Source: a virus. Taken from it: 5,080 nucleotides of DNA. Both the position numbers and the translations under genes were made by a program. Positions 1,207-5,080 of this stretch are shown here, piece by piece. The first letter of the stretch is position 1. Each line of letters opens with the position of its first letter. The DNA is taken from IMG/VR virus record IMGVR_UViG_2700989228_000032, one strand, 5' to 3'. A model generated the notes under the pieces. That model did not search any database and was not told the origin of the DNA. It was given only the letters and a program-made list of their open reading frames with translations.

Positions 1207-1243
1207 TTGACAATACCCCCCCCCACCCCCCCCCAGGTATAAT
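1207..1243 (+). promoter_or_regulatory. Sigma70-like promoter hexamers TTGACA (1207-1212) and TATAAT (1238-1243) with an abnormal 25-nt spacer
   Basis: Both hexamers match consensus 6/6 and sit about 33 nt upstream of the first gene of the ORF8-VP5-VP3-VP1-VP2 block. The spacer is ata+C9+a+C9+agg = 25 nt instead of 17+/-1, so function as sequenced is doubtful. Confidence 0.4.
1216..1234. repeat. Interrupted homopolymer CCCCCCCCC-A-CCCCCCCCC (G9-T-G9 on the minus strand)
   Basis: Read directly: C at 1216-1224, A at 1225, C at 1226-1234. I noticed no other C run longer than 4 in this AT-rich genome. Confidence 0.95.
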
Positions 1244-1395: not shown

Positions 1396-1688
1396 GAAAT
1401 GGAATTGTTAATGTAGTGTATTGTTTCTTTGATGAGGTAAGTCACAATGCTATGCAGTATTATGTGCTGCCTGGCGTTGAATGGTCTGAACGTGTGTTTA
1501 AGTCTCTCGTTGCTCAGATTGCCGTTGGTGAACCTCGAGAGTATTCTTTTCGGTTAGTTGGTCGTTTCGATGGGATTATGTTTCTGGATGCTGAGAAAGT
1601 TATTATTGAAGCTAATGAAGCTGGTATTCCGGTTCCTGAAATTCTGCGAGGTGATGAGTATGTCGAAAAAGTGGCTGACAATGTATGA
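1392..1688 (+). CDS. VP5-like small non-structural protein (product assignment tentative)
   Basis: 98-aa ORF whose start overlaps the upstream stop (ATGA). SD GGAGG at 1378-1382 lies 9 nt upstream. The position (after rep and the basic peptide, before the scaffold gene) and the loose pattern hhhYxxFDxxxxxAxxxxxxP...RxF...(D/E)YxFxLVGxFD resemble gokushovirus ORF5/VP5 as I remember it. No search was run. Confidence 0.7.
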   Translation: MRNGIVNVVYCFFDEVSHNAMQYYVLPGVEWSERVFKSLVAQIAVGEPREYSFRLVGRFDGIMFLDAEKVIIEANEAGIPVPEILRGDEYVEKVADNV

Positions 1689-2172
1689 TGTATACGAGAA
1701 TCCTGTTACGGTGGAAAGCAATCCCGGAACATCTTTTCGTGAAGAGTATAAATTATCTGTAGGCAAGGATGGTCGTAAGTGTCTTACAAAGATTCGTGAT
1801 ATTGACATATCCGCATATATTAACAGTTATGCACCCGGATGTGATATGGCTGTGATTTTGAATAAGTTACAAGCTGGTTTGATTTCTACAGATTTCGATG
1901 AACACAATTGTGTTGATCTGTCTATGATGCCTCGTGATGTTGTTGATGCAATGCAGAAAACAAGGCAGTTTCGCGAGAGTTTTGCGGATTTTCCAGAAGA
2001 GGTTCAGAAACTTTTTAATTATGATTCTAACCTTTTTATTCAGAGTTTTCTTGACGGTTCTCTTGATTCCGCACTTTCTACACTTAACAAACCTGAGACT
2101 AAACCTGAGACTAAACCTGAGACTAAACCTGAGACTAAACCTGAGATTAAACCTGATGGAGGTGATGCATAA
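1660..2172 (+). CDS. VP3: Internal scaffolding protein VP3, with a C-terminal (KPET)n repeat tail
   Basis: The frame is that of track ORF 1558-2172. In-frame ATGs are at 1654, 1660 and 1681. ATG 1660 has GAGGTG (1648-1653) with GAGG 8 nt upstream. ATG 1681 (MYDVYENP...) has no SD but overlaps the upstream gene by only 8 nt. The core ...INSYAPGCDMAVILNKLQAG...DLSMMPRDVVDAMQKTRQFRESFADFPEEVQKLFNYD... matches the gokushovirus VP3 pattern from memory. Confidence 0.8.
   Translation: MSKKWLTMYDVYENPVTVESNPGTSFREEYKLSVGKDGRKCLTKIRDIDISAYINSYAPGCDMAVILNKLQAGLISTDFDEHNCVDLSMMPRDVVDAMQKTRQFRESFADFPEEVQKLFNYDSNLFIQSFLDGSLDSALSTLNKPETKPETKPETKPETKPEIKPDGGDA
2089..2156 (+). repeat. 12-nt tandem repeat aaacctgagact x4, then one C>T variant and a partial unit; in frame it encodes KPET x4-KPEI-KPD
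   Basis: Perfect units at 2089-2100, 2101-2112, 2113-2124 and 2125-2136. The variant aaacctgagatt is at 2137-2148 and the partial unit aaacctga at 2149-2156. Confidence 0.97.
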
Positions 2173-2279
2173 TGGATGGTTTACTTTTTGCTATGTTTTT
2201 TTTGATCTTAATGGATGTTGGACTTAATATTTACAGTCTAGTGCTGATTGCATCAGACTACAGAAAGGACGGTGAATGA
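2172..2279 (+). CDS. Untracked 35-aa hydrophobic ORF, a putative single-pass membrane peptide (candidate lysis or membrane-active protein)
   Basis: Hand translation: MDGLLFAMFFLILMDVGLNIYSLVLIASDYRKDGE. The ATG 2172-2174 overlaps the VP3 stop (TAATG) and the TGA 2277-2279 overlaps the VP1 ATG (ATGA). GGAGGTGAT at 2158-2166 fully complements the canonical 16S anti-SD, with GGAGG 9 nt before the ATG, the same geometry as the VP5-like gene start. Confidence 0.5.
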   Translation: MDGLLFAMFFLILMDVGLNIYSLVLIASDYRKDGE

Positions 2280-3970
2280 GTTTGTCATTTTCAAAAAATC
2301 TGATTGATGCTAACAGCTATTTTTCTACTTATAAGAGTGATCTGGAAAGACCACGTTCTCGGTTTGACAGAAGTTCTTCTATCAAGACTTCATTCAACGT
2401 TGGTGACTTAGTGCCGTTTTACCTCGATGAAGTTTTACCTGGCGATACCTTTGATGTAGAGACTAGCTTTGTGACTCGTCTACAGACTCTTATTACACCG
2501 CCGATGGATGATCTTTTCCTCGACACGTATTATTTTTTCGTTCCGTCTCGATTATGCTGGACGCATTGGAAAGAGTTTATGGGTGAATCTACAAGTGCTT
2601 GGACTTCTGATGTTGAATATCAGGTTCCTCAGCTGACGTTCTCTAAGGCTGATAAGACTGCCTTGCAAAAATCTTTGCTTGACTATTTCGGTGTTCCGAT
2701 TAATCCTGACGGTGTTCTTTCTATCAGTAGACTTCCGGTCAATGCTTACAATTTGATCTGGAACGAGTGGTTTAGAGATGAGAATTTACAAGATGAAATT
2801 CTCGTTGATATTGACGATGGTAATGTAGAGTTTGACAAGACTAATTCTGCAAAAGGCGGTGCTTTGCTTAAAGTTAATAAGTTACACGACTATTTTACTT
2901 CTGCTCTTCCTCAGCCTCAGAAAGGCGAAGATGTAACGATTAGCTCGTTGTTTGGCGATTTGCCGGTTGTCTCTCGCAGTAAAGAGCATTTTGTAGCTGG
3001 CTCTCCTGAAATGTCTCCCGTTTTCGTTCGTCGTTCGAAGAATGGAGATCCTTTAGCTGGTGAATTCTATTCTACTACTAGCACACCATCGCTTCCGTCG
3101 CATCCTAATCCTTACAGTGTTTTTAAAATTCATGGACCATTTTCTGGTTCTGACGATGGCGTTGGAATTTCGTTTTCTAATCTCTATGCTGACCCCTCCG
3201 GTGCTGATCCGCTTACTGTGAATAGTCTTAGACTTGCTTTTGCTACTCAGCAGATGCTTGAAACTGATGCTCGCTCCGGTTCTCGTTATATTGAACTTTT
3301 GCGCGGTCATTTTGGCGTTATTTCCCCGGACGGTCGCTTGCAGCGTCCTGAACTACTTAGTGCTAACCGTACACGTATCAATGTGCATCAGATTGTTCAG
3401 CAGTCTGAATCTGGTGAAACTCCGTTGGGAACAACGGCTGCTATGTCTCTGACTTCTAATACGGATAACAGTTTTACTAAATCTTTTACTGAACACGGTT
3501 TCGTTGTTGGCGTGATGTGTGCCAGATATAATCATACATATCAGCAAGGATTGCAGCGCATGTGGTCACGTAAGAATCGTTTAGACTACTATTTTCCGAT
3601 TTTAGCCAACATCGGTGAACAGCCGATTTATACTCGTGAAATCTATTATGAAAATGATGGTTTCGGCAGTCTTGACGAAGTGTTCGGTTATCAGGAAGCC
3701 TGGGCAGATTATCGTTATAAAACGTCTGTCGTTACAGGTGAAATGAGATCTGGTATTACTAATTCTTTGCAGTCTTGGCATTTTGCCGACTATTATGCAA
3801 AAAAGCCTACATTATCATCTGAATGGATTAAGGAAGACAAGACCAACGTTGACAGGACTCTTGCTGTAACTAGTAAGGTTGCTGATCAAATTTTCGGTGA
3901 TTTTTATGTCAAAAACTTGACTACTCGAGTTATGCCGGTTCATTCTATCCCGGGCTTGCACACTCTGTAA
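2276..3970 (+). CDS. VP1: Major capsid protein VP1 (phiX174 F-like jelly-roll capsid protein, gokushovirus type)
   Basis: 564-aa ORF. SD GAAAGGA (2263-2269) lies 6 nt before the ATG. Family-typical motifs (from memory): RSRFDRSSSIKTSFNVGDLVPFYLDEVLPGDTF, HDYFTSALPQPQKG, RYIELLRGHFGV...QRPELL. Confidence 0.95.
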   Translation: MSLSFSKNLIDANSYFSTYKSDLERPRSRFDRSSSIKTSFNVGDLVPFYLDEVLPGDTFDVETSFVTRLQTLITPPMDDLFLDTYYFFVPSRLCWTHWKEFMGESTSAWTSDVEYQVPQLTFSKADKTALQKSLLDYFGVPINPDGVLSISRLPVNAYNLIWNEWFRDENLQDEILVDIDDGNVEFDKTNSAKGGALLKVNKLHDYFTSALPQPQKGEDVTISSLFGDLPVVSRSKEHFVAGSPEMSPVFVRRSKNGDPLAGEFYSTTSTPSLPSHPNPYSVFKIHGPFSGSDDGVGISFSNLYADPSGADPLTVNSLRLAFATQQMLETDARSGSRYIELLRGHFGVISPDGRLQRPELLSANRTRINVHQIVQQSESGETPLGTTAAMSLTSNTDNSFTKSFTEHGFVVGVMCARYNHTYQQGLQRMWSRKNRLDYYFPILANIGEQPIYTREIYYENDGFGSLDEVFGYQEAWADYRYKTSVVTGEMRSGITNSLQSWHFADYYAKKPTLSSEWIKEDKTNVDRTLAVTSKVADQIFGDFYVKNLTTRVMPVHSIPGLHTL

Positions 3971-4151: not shown

Positions 4152-4823
4152 ATGACTACTGATCAATTATCTAATCAGTTATCAAATATTGCTTCTCAGA
4201 ATACGGCGAAAAGTCAGGAATTTGCTCGTGAAGAAATGAAATTCAATTCTGCAGAAGCACAGAAAAATAGAGATTGGCAAGCGCAGCAGTCTGCAACTGC
4301 TCATCAGCGTGAGGTTATCGATCTCCAAAAAGCTGGACTTAACCCGGTTTTGTCTGCCGGAGGCTCTGGCGCACAAACCGGCTCAGGAGCTACTGCATCC
4401 GGTGCGAAAGGTGAAACAGATAATTCTGTTGTGCCTGCTTTGGCTAGTATTATTGTCAATCAACAGAATAATGCGAATCAACAAGCTATTGCTCAGATAC
4501 AAAGAGACGCAACTCTCGAGGCTGCTCGTATTCATCAGTCTACCGCTTTACAAGCCGCTAACATTCAAGCTGATGCTTCACGGTTCGCAAGTATTAATTC
4601 TGCGAATGCTGCACGTTATGCTTCACAAATGAGTTATGCTGGGTCAAAATATGCTTCTCAGATGGGTTACGCTGGTACTAAGTATTCTAGTAACAAGAGT
4701 TCTGGTGCATCTCGATATGCAACTAATGTGAATTCCAAGACTACTAAACGTGGTCAGAATATGAGTCTTATTGGCTCACTTGCTGGTTCTGCTGCTGGAT
4801 TGCTTGGAAAAATTTTTGGGTAG
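4152..4823 (+). CDS. VP2: Minor capsid / DNA pilot protein VP2 (functional analogue of phiX174 H)
   Basis: The frame is that of track ORF 4119-4823. ATG 4152 has GAAAGGA (4136-4142) 9 nt upstream, the same geometry as VP4. The only SD-like sequence for ATG 4119 is 12 nt away and lies inside a hairpin, so I prefer 4152; 4119 is the alternative. AQKNRDWQAQQSATAHQREVIDLQKAGLNPVLS matches the conserved gokushovirus VP2 motif from memory. The middle is Q/A-rich and helical-looking, followed by a Gly-rich stretch. Confidence 0.85.
   Translation: MTTDQLSNQLSNIASQNTAKSQEFAREEMKFNSAEAQKNRDWQAQQSATAHQREVIDLQKAGLNPVLSAGGSGAQTGSGATASGAKGETDNSVVPALASIIVNQQNNANQQAIAQIQRDATLEAARIHQSTALQAANIQADASRFASINSANAARYASQMSYAGSKYASQMGYAGTKYSSNKSSGASRYATNVNSKTTKRGQNMSLIGSLAGSAAGLLGKIFG
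4581..4745 (+). repeat. Five consecutive 33-nt (11-residue) in-frame repeats in the VP2 C-terminal region; the two central copies are a recognisable tandem duplication
   Basis: Units: RFASINSANAA / RYASQMSYAGS / KYASQMGYAGT / KYSSNKSSGAS / RYATNVNSKTT. At the DNA level 4617-4649 (tatgcttcacaaatgagttatgctgggtcaaaa) and 4650-4682 (tatgcttctcagatgggttacgctggtactaag) differ mostly at third codon positions. Confidence 0.85.
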
Positions 4824-4833
4824 CCGATACCCA

Positions 4834-4862
4834 GACCAGTTACGTACTTGATGTAACTGGTC
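4834..4862 (+). other. 10-bp stem-loop gaccagttac-gtacttgat-gtaactggtc, 11 nt after the VP2 stop
   Basis: Exact reverse-complement arms at 4834-4843 and 4853-4862. The 9-nt loop contains ACTTGAT. Confidence 0.8.
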
Positions 4863-4881
4863 GGACTGACACCAAAAAAAC

Positions 4882-4906
4882 AGTTGTACGCGCTACGCGG
4901 ACAACT
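4882..4906 (+). other. Stem-loop agttgt-a-cgcg-cta-cgcg-g-acaact, preceded by A7 (4874-4880)
   Basis: Ten base pairs (6+4) with one A/G internal mismatch and a 3-nt loop. Confidence 0.7.
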
Positions 4907-4958: not shown

Positions 4959-4980
4959 AGAGGACTCGGCAAAGTCCTCT
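4959..4980 (+). other. Stem-loop agaggact-cggcaa-agtcctct (8 bp), preceded by A8 (4952-4959); the same element appears at 7-28
   Basis: The arms are exact reverse complements. It lies 24 nt upstream of the VP4 start codon. On the minus strand it reads as hairpin+T8. Confidence 0.75.
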
Positions 4981-5004
4981 AAGTCTACGAAAGGATATAA
5001 GTAT

Positions 5005-5080
5005 ATGGCATGTTATCATCCATTGCGTGGCGCTTATACTAATAATAAGAAAGCCACCGGAAAAAATCAAGTGAAAGTTT
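5005..5080 (+). CDS. VP4: 5' fragment of the VP4 gene, truncated by the window end (wrap-around duplicate of 53-128, not a second gene)
   Basis: Identical to 53-128 (MACYHPLRGAYTNNKKATGKNQVKV...). Confidence 0.9.
   Translation, partial: MACYHPLRGAYTNNKKATGKNQVKV

What the first reader, a model, noticed from the sequence alone, without database searches (positions are those of the whole stretch)
2172..2279. Hidden 35-codon transmembrane-like ORF fitted exactly between the VP3 stop and the VP1 start: candidate gokushovirus lysis or membrane peptide
Seen in sequence: the ORF is below the track cutoff. Its ATG overlaps the VP3 stop (TAATG) and its TGA overlaps the VP1 start (ATGA), so it fills the VP3-VP1 gap to the nucleotide. 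It is preceded by GGAGGTGAT (2158-2166), the best anti-SD complement I found in the genome, with the same GGAGGT-N8-ATG geometry as the VP5-like gene (1378-1394). The product, MDGLLFAMFFLILMDVGLNIYSLVLIASDYRKDGE, has about 24 mostly hydrophobic residues and then a charged tail. Established knowledge: phiX174-type microviruses lyse with the small membrane protein E, an MraY inhibitor. Gokushoviruses lack an E homologue and, to my knowledge, have no assigned lysis gene. Inference: this is a plausible single-gene-lysis or other membrane-active peptide, translationally coupled to the capsid gene.
Basis: partly seen in the sequence, partly recalled or inferred. Interest (0 to 1): 0.75.

Follow-up and report, generated by a model that had tools for sequence, protein, structure and literature searches.

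The report
Conserved 35-codon membrane peptide gene
The tiny reading frame between the scaffold and capsid genes of this gut microvirus is a real gene, kept by selection, for a single membrane-type helix; it is the only unassigned candidate for host lysis or another membrane function, but its function has not been tested.

Summary
ORF 2172-2279 (35 aa) starts in TAATG on the VP3 stop and ends in ATGA on the VP1 ATG. GGAGGTGAT lies 8 nt upstream. Within this window alone it is not beyond chance: P(open) is about 0.10, and 10 of 18 non-gene + strand ORFs are equally "TM-like". Comparison with relatives settles it. Every relative with VP1 at least 68% identical whose junction is present (about 24 junctions from human and lemur gut) keeps a homologous 28-36 codon frame with a start codon. 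pN/pS is 0.17, against 0.16 for VP1 and 0.39 and 8.3, with stops, in the other two frames. Variable columns by codon position are 12/1/16, and indels are in frame. L4, L11, D15 and N19 are invariant. AlphaFold2 predicts one helix (pLDDT 90). No known family matches. The peptide is already in NCBI nr as "Uncharacterised protein [Chlamydia trachomatis]", but it is not annotated in the curated relative Dulem virus 137. The charged tail is largely the VP1 Shine-Dalgarno read in frame, and the exact ATGA overlap is not conserved. More distant relatives (VP1 54% or less) mostly lack the spacer, so the gene is specific to this clade. My probabilities: real translated gene about 0.95; lysis or membrane-damage effector about 0.4; other membrane accessory role about 0.35.

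The parts
2172..2279 (+). sORF coding sequence: 35 codons plus TGA, product MDGLLFAMFFLILMDVGLNIYSLVLIASDYRKDGE
   Evidence: Listed as an ORF. Homologues are 85-94% identical in L001-L006. pN/pS is 0.17 against 0.16 for VP1. The frame is open in all clade members. The exact peptide and 58 close variants are in public protein collections.
2158..2166 (+). Shine-Dalgarno of the sORF (GGAGGTGAT), embedded in the last VP3 codons (G-G-D)
   Evidence: Duplex energy with the anti-SD is -16.9 kcal/mol. GGTGAT is conserved in group A, and AAGGAG lies about 8 nt before a TTG or ATG start in group B.
2170..2174 (+). TAATG junction: VP3 stop overlapping the sORF start by one base
   Evidence: In L001, L004 and L102 the shared base is G (TAGTG), which keeps both a stop and a start (GTG).
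2178..2252 (+). Codons 3-27: predicted transmembrane-type helix
   Evidence: Kyte-Doolittle 23-residue maximum is 2.30 at residues 4-26, and the Hessa sum is +0.5 kcal/mol. AlphaFold2 gives a helix over residues 2-34 with pLDDT 90. pN/pS for this part is 0.22, and variable columns by codon position are 11/3/12.
2214..2228 (+). Codons 15-19, D-V-G-L-N: the invariant Asp15 and Asn19 with near-invariant G17 and L18 at the centre of the helix
   Evidence: D15 and N19 are invariant in 25 sequences from both subclades, which otherwise share only 38-52% identity.
2263..2275 (+). Shine-Dalgarno of VP1 (GAAAGGACGGTGA) lying inside sORF codons 31-35 (R-K-D-G-E)
   Evidence: GAAAGGA at 2263-2269 is invariant in all 11 aligned genomes. 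Duplex energy is -17.9 kcal/mol.
2276..2284 (+). VP1 start region: ATG 2276 (ATGA overlap with the sORF stop) and in-frame TTG 2282, the position where relatives start VP1
   Evidence: In group B the VP1 ATG aligns with TTG 2282. Group A relatives have TAA-G-TTG or an upstream ATG, and L097 has a 1-nt deletion that puts the window's ATG out of frame.
1654..2172 (+). VP3 internal scaffold gene (context, upstream neighbour)
   Evidence: PF09675 Chlamy_scaf, E = 1.6e-16; phrog_1642.
2276..3970 (+). VP1 major capsid gene (context, downstream neighbour)
   Evidence: PF02305 Phage_F, E = 5e-144.

Best explanation
Bases 2172-2279 are a genuine, independently translated gene of a clade of primate-gut microviruses. 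It sits in the translationally chained string ORF39-ORF98-VP3-sORF-VP1. It has its own strong Shine-Dalgarno inside the end of VP3, and it terminates inside the ribosome-binding region of VP1. Its product is a peptide of about 30-35 residues that forms one hydrophobic helix with a short polar C-terminus, and it is expected to insert into the host cytoplasmic membrane. Selection acts on the peptide itself. The most constrained residues are an Asp and an Asn one helical turn apart in the middle of the helix. That pattern fits a helix that binds another membrane helix, either a host membrane protein or copies of itself. My best guess for the role is host-cell lysis or membrane damage at the end of infection. 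This could work like the 37-residue LysM or phiX174 E, which block lipid II supply by binding a membrane protein. It could also work as a small pore-forming or depolarising peptide. Shown here: a real gene, a helical hydrophobic product, purifying selection, restriction to one clade, and no known family. Inferred: membrane insertion, binding through D15/N19, and the lysis role. The confidence of 0.4 is for the whole statement including the lysis or membrane-damage role; for the gene and one-helix peptide part alone it is about 0.95.
For: Evidence that it is a gene:
- It is open, with a start codon, in every junction recovered from relatives with VP1 at least 68% identical.
- pN/pS is 0.17 in group A, against 0.16 for VP1 and 0.39 and 8.3, with stops, in the other frames. 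It is 0.28 in group B, against 0.91 and 3.8.
- Variable columns by codon position are 12/1/16 in group A and 15/6/22 in group B.
- Indels inside the coding part are 3 or 9-12 nt.
- The start codon changes among ATG, GTG and TTG, but one is always present at SD distance. L009, L020, L106 and L132 have a stop right after the old ATG and keep a TTG 8 nt after AAGGAG. L128 has its own AAGGAG-N7-ATG after a spacer full of stops.
- There are 59 distinct variants of 35-36 aa in public data.

Evidence on the product: Kyte-Doolittle 2.15-2.3; one helix with pLDDT 90; a sub-threshold resemblance to a MalF TM helix only.

Evidence bearing on a lysis or membrane role:
- All other genes are assigned to replication, DNA binding, scaffold, capsid or pilot, and there is no peptidase or E homologue.
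- Gokushovirus-type genomes are reported to lack a lysis gene (PMC7062461).
- A 37-residue single-pass peptide is a proven lysis protein (PMC12506998).
- Non-homologous small TM ORFs occupy the same VP3-VP1 slot in L014/L114, L112 and L143, and other intergenic slots in further lineages. This recalls the scattered, repeated origin of single-gene lysis genes.
Against: - No functional data exist.
- Sister lineages (VP1 54% or less) mostly have no spacer and no intergenic TM ORF, yet must also exit the cell.
- The SD is one of the strongest in the genome and the gene abuts the most highly expressed gene. phiX174 E, by contrast, is weakly translated (from memory).
- The central Asp and Asn make insertion marginal on the Hessa scale.
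- Hydrophobic ORFs are common on this T-rich strand.
- In a crude survey, TM-like ORFs were not enriched among intergenic SD-preceded small ORFs relative to the minus strand (18/300 against 2/25).
- The host may be a Gram-positive Clostridia-type bacterium: all genes use a strong SD, and a distant relative is integrated in a 176-kb Clostridia MAG contig. No single-gene lysis protein is known for such hosts.
Confidence: 0.4

Rival explanations
1. It is a real membrane peptide with a non-lysis accessory role. Examples are a phiX174 K-like modulator of burst size, a superinfection-exclusion factor, or an inhibitor or modulator of a host membrane protein (division, transport or signalling), in the manner of small bacterial membrane regulators.
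For: The gene and helix evidence is the same as above. The gene is clade-specific and absent from sister lineages, which is typical of accessory genes. A strong SD suits a protein needed in quantity or early. The conserved D15/N19 suit specific intramembrane binding.
Against: A genome of about 4.95 kb with seven genes has little room for non-essential genes. Every clade member keeps the gene. No lysis function is otherwise assigned.
Confidence: 0.35
2. It is chiefly a translational coupling device. Ribosomes loaded at the strong SD translate the sORF and terminate within the VP1 ribosome-binding region, which feeds or unmasks VP1 initiation. On this view the peptide is a by-product.
For: The sORF stop always falls between the VP1 SD and the VP1 start, or on the start itself. 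Group A relatives appear to start VP1 at a weak TTG or at an ATG with no usable SD spacing. ATGA and TAATG overlaps chain ORF39, ORF98, VP3, the sORF and VP1.
Against: Purifying selection on amino acids in the helix part, far from either SD, is as strong as in VP1 (pN/pS 0.22, codon position 2 almost invariant). D15 and N19 are invariant across subclades. A coupling ORF need not be 30-35 codons long or hydrophobic. Sister lineages couple VP3 directly to VP1 without it. The local RNA fold is not unusual (z = -0.98).
Confidence: 0.1
3. It is not a separate product. The frame would be joined to VP3 by a -1 frameshift, or to VP1 by readthrough, giving a membrane-anchored scaffold or capsid variant.
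For: The frame abuts both genes. In L007, L008 and L009 the sORF stop is in frame with the VP1 ATG.
Against: The sORF frame has a TGA two codons before its ATG in the window (2163-2165). L009, L020, L106 and L132 have a stop between the VP3 end and the sORF start in the sORF frame, and L128 has stops in all frames. The frame relation to VP1 differs between genomes (+1 in group A, L103, L104 and L128; 0 in others). There is no slippery heptamer.
Confidence: 0.02
4. It is a chance ORF in a T-rich non-coding spacer, and the spacer is conserved for DNA or RNA reasons.
For: Openness (P about 0.10) and hydrophobicity are unremarkable within the single genome.
Against: There is three-base periodicity of substitutions, pN/pS is far below 1 only in this frame, stops occur in the other frames, and indels are in frame.
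Confidence: 0.03

Closest known systems
LysM (SglM) of ssRNA phage M, a 37-residue single-gene lysis protein that blocks the lipid II flippase MurJ (PMC12506998)
   Same: Size (35 against 37 aa). Both are a single predicted membrane-spanning helix and little else, encoded by a very small lytic phage with no endolysin. A specific helix-helix contact is a plausible mode of action.
   Different: No sequence relation was detected. The phage is DNA rather than RNA. This gene is not overprinted and has a strong SD. Lysis activity and target are unknown, and the host may not be a Gram-negative enterobacterium.
phiX174 protein E (Pfam Microvir_lysis), the MraY inhibitor of Bullavirinae
   Same: Same virus family in the broad sense. 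Both are small membrane proteins whose N-terminal helix would carry the activity, and both lie next to or in a scaffold gene.
   Different: No profile match. 35 aa against 91 aa. No proline in the helix, whereas E needs P21 (from memory). It occupies its own spacer rather than being overprinted in the scaffold gene, and it has no basic C-terminal domain.
phiX174 protein K, a small non-essential membrane protein that affects burst size (from memory)
   Same: A small hydrophobic microvirus protein with an accessory distribution.
   Different: No sequence relation. K is overprinted on A and C. Its function is also poorly defined, so the comparison explains little.
Type I toxin peptides such as Fst, TisB and Hok, and small bacterial membrane regulators such as MgrB and AcrZ (from memory)
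   Same: About 30-50 aa, with one hydrophobic helix followed by a short charged tail. They act in the cytoplasmic membrane.
   Different: No Pfam match at E up to 1. No antisense RNA partner was examined. This peptide is phage-encoded within a structural-gene operon.

Membership tests
Bona fide protein-coding gene | The frame stays open, with a start codon, in relatives | tested here: met
   All junctions from relatives with VP1 at least 68% identical have it. L138 has a 1-nt insertion, but an alternative in-frame ATG keeps the core.
Bona fide protein-coding gene | Purifying selection specific to this frame | tested here: met
   pN/pS is 0.17 in group A and 0.28 in group B, against 0.39-8.3 in the other frames; VP1 is 0.16. 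Variable columns by codon position are 12/1/16.
Bona fide protein-coding gene | Ribosome-binding site at a functional distance | tested here: met
   GGAGGT-N8-ATG in the window; GGTGAT or AAGGAG 7-8 nt before the start in relatives.
Bona fide protein-coding gene | Product detected (Ribo-seq or proteomics) | not testable with these tools
   No expression data are available.
phiX174 E (Microvir_lysis) | Match to the family profile | tested here: not met
   No hit in Pfam at E up to 1 for any of 25 members; none in PHROGs or NCBIfam.
phiX174 E (Microvir_lysis) | Conserved proline in the N-terminal transmembrane helix | tested here: not met
   No proline in any of 25 aligned sequences.
phiX174 E (Microvir_lysis) | Overprinted inside the scaffold gene | tested here: not met
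   The sORF lies in its own spacer. The alternative-frame ORF inside VP3 (1934-2227) is no longer than expected: 779 of 5000 synonymous shuffles reach its length.
Single-gene lysis proteins (functional class, e.g. LysM) | Small protein with one membrane helix, in a phage without an endolysin | tested here: met
   helix, hydropathy; no peptidase or endolysin.
Single-gene lysis proteins (functional class, e.g. LysM) | Expression alone causes host lysis, with a defined target in cell-wall precursor supply | not testable with these tools
   This needs expression experiments, and the host is unknown.
Holin (with endolysin) | Partner muralytic enzyme in the genome, and a match to a holin family | tested here: not met
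   No muralytic domain and no holin family hit.
Type I toxin peptides (Fst/Ldr-like) | Match to the family profile | tested here: not met
   No Pfam hit other than a sub-threshold MalF_N_TM match.
Integral membrane peptide | Hydrophobic helix long enough to span a bilayer | tested here: inconclusive
   Kyte-Doolittle 2.15-2.30 over 19-23 residues and an AlphaFold2 helix speak for it. The unweighted Hessa sum of +0.5 to +1.8 kcal/mol, caused by the central D15 and N19, is marginal. DeepTMHMM and Phobius are not available here.

The most novel reading that the evidence does not exclude
The peptide is the lysis effector of this microvirus clade. It would be the first single-gene lysis protein outside the phiX174 group of Microviridae. 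It would act through its invariant intramembrane Asp/Asn face on a host membrane protein, possibly in a Clostridia-type host. It would also be one instance of a recurrent pattern in which unrelated one-helix peptides arise in the scaffold-capsid slot and other intergenic slots of gut microviruses (L014, L112, L143, L021-type).
Probability: 0.3. Interest if true: 0.8.

Novelty: new member of a known kind. Interest (0 to 1): 0.55.

Why it matters
How microviruses outside the phiX174 group leave their hosts is an acknowledged gap (PMC7062461). These phages are among the most common in the human gut. This finding is a short peptide that can be made synthetically, is under clear purifying selection, and has two invariant polar residues that offer obvious point-mutant controls. 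That makes a concrete experiment possible: express it, look for lysis or depolarisation, and select suppressors to find the target. If it is a lysis protein, it could point to a new weak spot in the envelope of gut bacteria. If it is not, it is still an unannotated seventh gene of a seven-gene virus, and curated microvirus records such as Dulem virus 137 omit it.

Tried and rejected
1. Alternative-frame ORF 1934-2227 inside VP3 as an E-in-D analogue. Its 81-codon open run is reached by 779 of 5000 synonymous shuffles, and +1 frames are long throughout the genome. Rejected as evidence.
2. Clustering of conserved residues on one helix face. The helical moment of conservation at 100 degrees is not significant (permutation p = 0.12), so I do not claim it.
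3. RNA structure around the junction. MFE z-score is -0.98, so there is no support for a structured element.
4. Homology between the sORF family and the slot peptides of L112 and L014. hhalign probability is below 1%, so they are positional analogues only.
5. General enrichment of TM-like small intergenic ORFs. A crude survey gave 18/300 on the + strand against 2/25 on the - strand, so no enrichment was shown. The SD pattern used also missed group A, so the survey is weak in both directions.
6. Fusion to VP3 or VP1 by frameshift or readthrough. Excluded by stops and by inconsistent frame relations.
I used the representative search instead; it found a single cluster.
8. PDB sequence search with the family profile gave no match.
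9. The phiMH2K paper (Brentlinger 2002) could not be read. Literature searches found no description of a TM ORF between VP3 and VP1.
10. Host assignment. Only a distant integrated relative (VP1 42% identical) in a Clostridia MAG and a binned Lachnospiraceae contig were found. The 'Chlamydia trachomatis' label in nr most likely reflects mixed clinical-sample assemblies (my inference).

Full report
WHAT THE WINDOW IS. The 5080 bases are one circular microvirus genome of about 4952 nt with a 128-nt terminal redundancy. All genes are on the + strand:
- Rep/VP4, 53-1075 (PF23343)
- a 39-aa basic protein, 1276-1395 (phrog_10695)
- a 98-aa ORF, 1392-1688, with no family
- the VP3 scaffold, 1654-2172 (PF09675)
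- the 35-codon ORF in question, 2172-2279
- the VP1 capsid, 2276-3970 (PF02305)
- the VP2 pilot, 4119/4152-4823

No peptidase, endolysin or phiX174 E-like protein is present.

THE OBSERVATION.
- TAATG joins the VP3 stop to the sORF start.
- ATGA joins the sORF stop to the VP1 ATG.
- GGAGGTGAT lies at 2158-2166, and GGAGGT is 8 nt from the ATG, as it is at the 98-aa ORF.
- The predicted anti-SD pairing (-16.9 kcal/mol) is in the top 2% of positions.

Within this one genome, however, the ORF is not beyond chance. A 34-codon open run has P of about 0.10. This T-rich strand also yields hydrophobic ORFs readily: 10 of 18 non-gene + strand ORFs exceed the Kyte-Doolittle threshold.

COMPARATIVE EVIDENCE. 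Relatives came from IMG/VR, ENA and JGI metagenomes, mostly human gut, Logan and GenBank (Dulem virus 137 from lemur faeces).

Every genome with VP1 at least 68% identical whose VP3-VP1 junction is on the contig has a homologous frame of 28-36 codons. There are two subclades.
- Group A: VP1 82-100% identical, 35-36 aa, for example MEGLLFAMFFLILMDLGLNIYSLVLIASDYRKDGE.
- Group B: VP1 68-79% identical, 28-32 aa, for example MDLLWVMILLIIFDIGLNVAVLTMLAGKE.

The coding signature is clear.
- In group A, pN/pS is 0.17, against 0.16 for VP1 in the same genomes. The other two frames give 0.39 and 8.3 and carry stops.
- Variable columns by codon position are 12/1/16.
- The helix part alone gives 0.22.
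- In group B, pN/pS is 0.28, against 0.91 and 3.8 in the other frames.
- Length differences inside the coding part are 3 or 9-12 nt.

The start is maintained by different means in different genomes.
- A shared-base change from TAATG to TAGTG keeps both the VP3 stop and a GTG start (L001, L004, L102).
- L009, L020, L106 and L132 carry a stop directly after the ancestral ATG, but retain a TTG 8 nt after AAGGAG.
- L128 has a separate AAGGAG-N7-ATG after a spacer with stops in all frames.
- L138 has a 1-nt insertion, and an upstream ATG in the other frame restores an ORF that keeps the conserved core.

These facts also exclude a VP3-sORF or sORF-VP1 fusion product.

Public protein collections hold the exact window peptide (CRH59962.1, "Uncharacterised protein [Chlamydia trachomatis]") and 58 further variants, all 35-36 aa. 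A search of 1.84 billion cluster representatives found only this one family. The curated GenBank record of Dulem virus 137 does not annotate the ORF.

THE PRODUCT. AlphaFold2, using the family alignment, gives a single helix over residues 2-34 with mean pLDDT 90. Kyte-Doolittle hydropathy is 2.15-2.30 over 19-23 residues. The unweighted Hessa scale is marginal (+0.5 to +1.8 kcal/mol) because Asp15 and Asn19 lie at the centre. Those two residues, with L4 and L11, are the only invariant positions across both subclades, and G17 and L18 are nearly invariant.

The C-terminal charged residues are not an independent feature. GAAAGGA at 2263-2269 is invariant because it is the VP1 Shine-Dalgarno, and read in the sORF frame it gives R/G-K-D/E.

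No Pfam, PHROGs, NCBIfam or PDB family matches; the only hit is a sub-threshold resemblance to a MalF transmembrane helix.

EXPRESSION CONTEXT. ATGA and TAATG overlaps chain ORF39, ORF98, VP3, the sORF and VP1. The sORF stop always falls between the VP1 SD and the VP1 start, or on the start itself, but the exact geometry varies. The window's ATGA is unique. Most group A genomes have TAA-G-TTG, and in group B an ATG sits where the window has TTG 2282. Termination-reinitiation coupling to VP1 is therefore plausible. It cannot by itself explain amino-acid-level selection in the helix. The local RNA fold is unremarkable.

DISTRIBUTION. Relatives with VP1 at 54% identity or less mostly have the VP3 stop overlapping the VP1 start and no spacer, so the gene is a clade-specific acquisition. 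A few other lineages carry unrelated one-helix ORFs in the same slot: L014/L114 at 31-41 aa, L112 at 32 aa ending in K-E on the VP1 SD, and L143 at 49 aa. hhalign shows no relation between these and the sORF family. Others carry such ORFs in different intergenic slots, for example MEKLIKIALVLVILLLCIKLVLMILPYLLVLLIA in L021 and L118-L122. Many genomes have none, and my crude survey showed no statistical enrichment.

INTERPRETATION. That this is a real, translated gene for a one-helix hydrophobic peptide I hold at about 0.95. I put membrane insertion at about 0.8.

The function is inferred. Three things favour a lysis or membrane-damage effector. Lysis is the only essential step with no gene assigned. 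Gokushovirus-type phages are reported to lack a lysis gene (PMC7062461). And a 37-residue one-helix peptide is a proven lysis protein (PMC12506998).

Three things count against it. Sister lineages lack the gene. The ribosome-binding site is very strong and lies next to the capsid gene. And the host is possibly Gram-positive: all genes have strong SDs, and a distant relative is integrated in a Clostridia MAG.

My estimates are:
- lysis or membrane damage, about 0.4
- another membrane accessory role, about 0.35
- mainly a coupling device, about 0.1
- chance ORF or fusion product, about 0.05 together

COMPARISON WITH KNOWN SYSTEMS. In size and architecture it would work like LysM or the N-terminal helix of phiX174 E. 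It is not a member of the E family: there is no profile match, no helix proline, and it is not overprinted. No membership in any described family could be shown.

VERDICT. The lysis reading is plausible but unproven, and the gene is specific to this clade. It is a new family within a known kind, small phage membrane peptides, and of moderate interest because it gives a directly testable candidate for an open question.

Noticed in passing
window 1207-1243; compare L002, L005, L007, L008, L009, L011 upstream of the 39-aa ORF: Relatives carry a sigma-70-like TTGACA/TATAAT pair ahead of the ORF39-to-VP2 gene string, with a 16-18-nt spacer that is mostly a C8-C9 run. In the window the run is doubled (C9-A-C9, 1216-1234), which gives a 25-nt spacer. 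This is either a homopolymer assembly artefact or slipped-strand variation of promoter spacing.
   Followed up: partly
window 1934-2227 (+), alternative frame inside VP3: A 97-codon hydrophobic ORF overlaps the second half of VP3 and is also open in L001-L006, superficially like E-in-D of phiX174. Its length is within expectation: 779 of 5000 synonymous shuffles reach it, and +1 frames are long in all genes of this genome.
   Followed up: yes
window 2092-2150 (VP3 C-terminus): A 15-nt tandem repeat encodes (PETK)x5. Relatives have different units and copy numbers at the same place (KPDP in L001, PADP-type in L007, EQPK in L103), so the scaffold tail is a variable low-complexity region just upstream of the sORF SD.
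   Followed up: partly
window 4834-4882: An intergenic stretch after VP2 contains a 9-bp-stem hairpin (ACCAGTTAC-N9-GTAACTGGT, 4834-4860). It is 96% identical to Dulem virus 137 and 91% identical to a Ciona-associated microvirus, far above the identity of the coding regions. It could be a replication origin or another cis element.
   Followed up: partly
L147 about 4776-9444 (CAKQTC010000003.1, 176-kb contig of an uncultured Clostridia MAG): A microvirus gene set (basic protein, VP1 42% identical to the window's, VP2, Rep) lies inside a long bacterial contig. This suggests an integrated microvirus in Clostridia and gives a weak lead to the host range of this broad group.
   Followed up: partly
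L014 1998-2123 (same as L114), L112 about 2145-2243, L143 2300-2449; L021 2001-2105 and L118-L122: Unrelated one-helix ORFs of 31-49 codons with good SDs sit in the same VP3-VP1 slot in other lineages, and L112 even ends in K-E on the VP1 SD. Another 34-aa hydrophobic ORF family follows the basic-protein gene in genomes that lack the slot gene.
   Followed up: partly
L138 1197-1316 (CYGL01005625.1): A 1-nt insertion near the sORF start truncates the canonical frame after 11 codons, but an upstream ATG in the other frame restores a 38-39-codon ORF that keeps the conserved core. It is either a real variant or a homopolymer sequencing error.
   Followed up: no
NCBI nr CRH59962.1 and CRH59951.1; L148 (PP511361.1) 4218-4511 and 4968-5066: The peptide is filed under Chlamydia trachomatis in nr, which probably reflects phage contigs in clinical-sample assemblies. 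In Dulem virus 137 the sORF is unannotated, and the homologue of the 98-aa ORF is labelled 'replication initiator protein', which looks like an annotation carry-over.
   Followed up: no
window 2276-2284 and L097 97-130: The VP1 start is unstable among close relatives: ATG 2276 in the window, TTG or an upstream ATG in L001-L006, and a 1-nt deletion in L097 that puts the window's ATG out of frame. The conserved N-terminus begins at the TTG 2282 position, where group B has ATG.
   Followed up: partly
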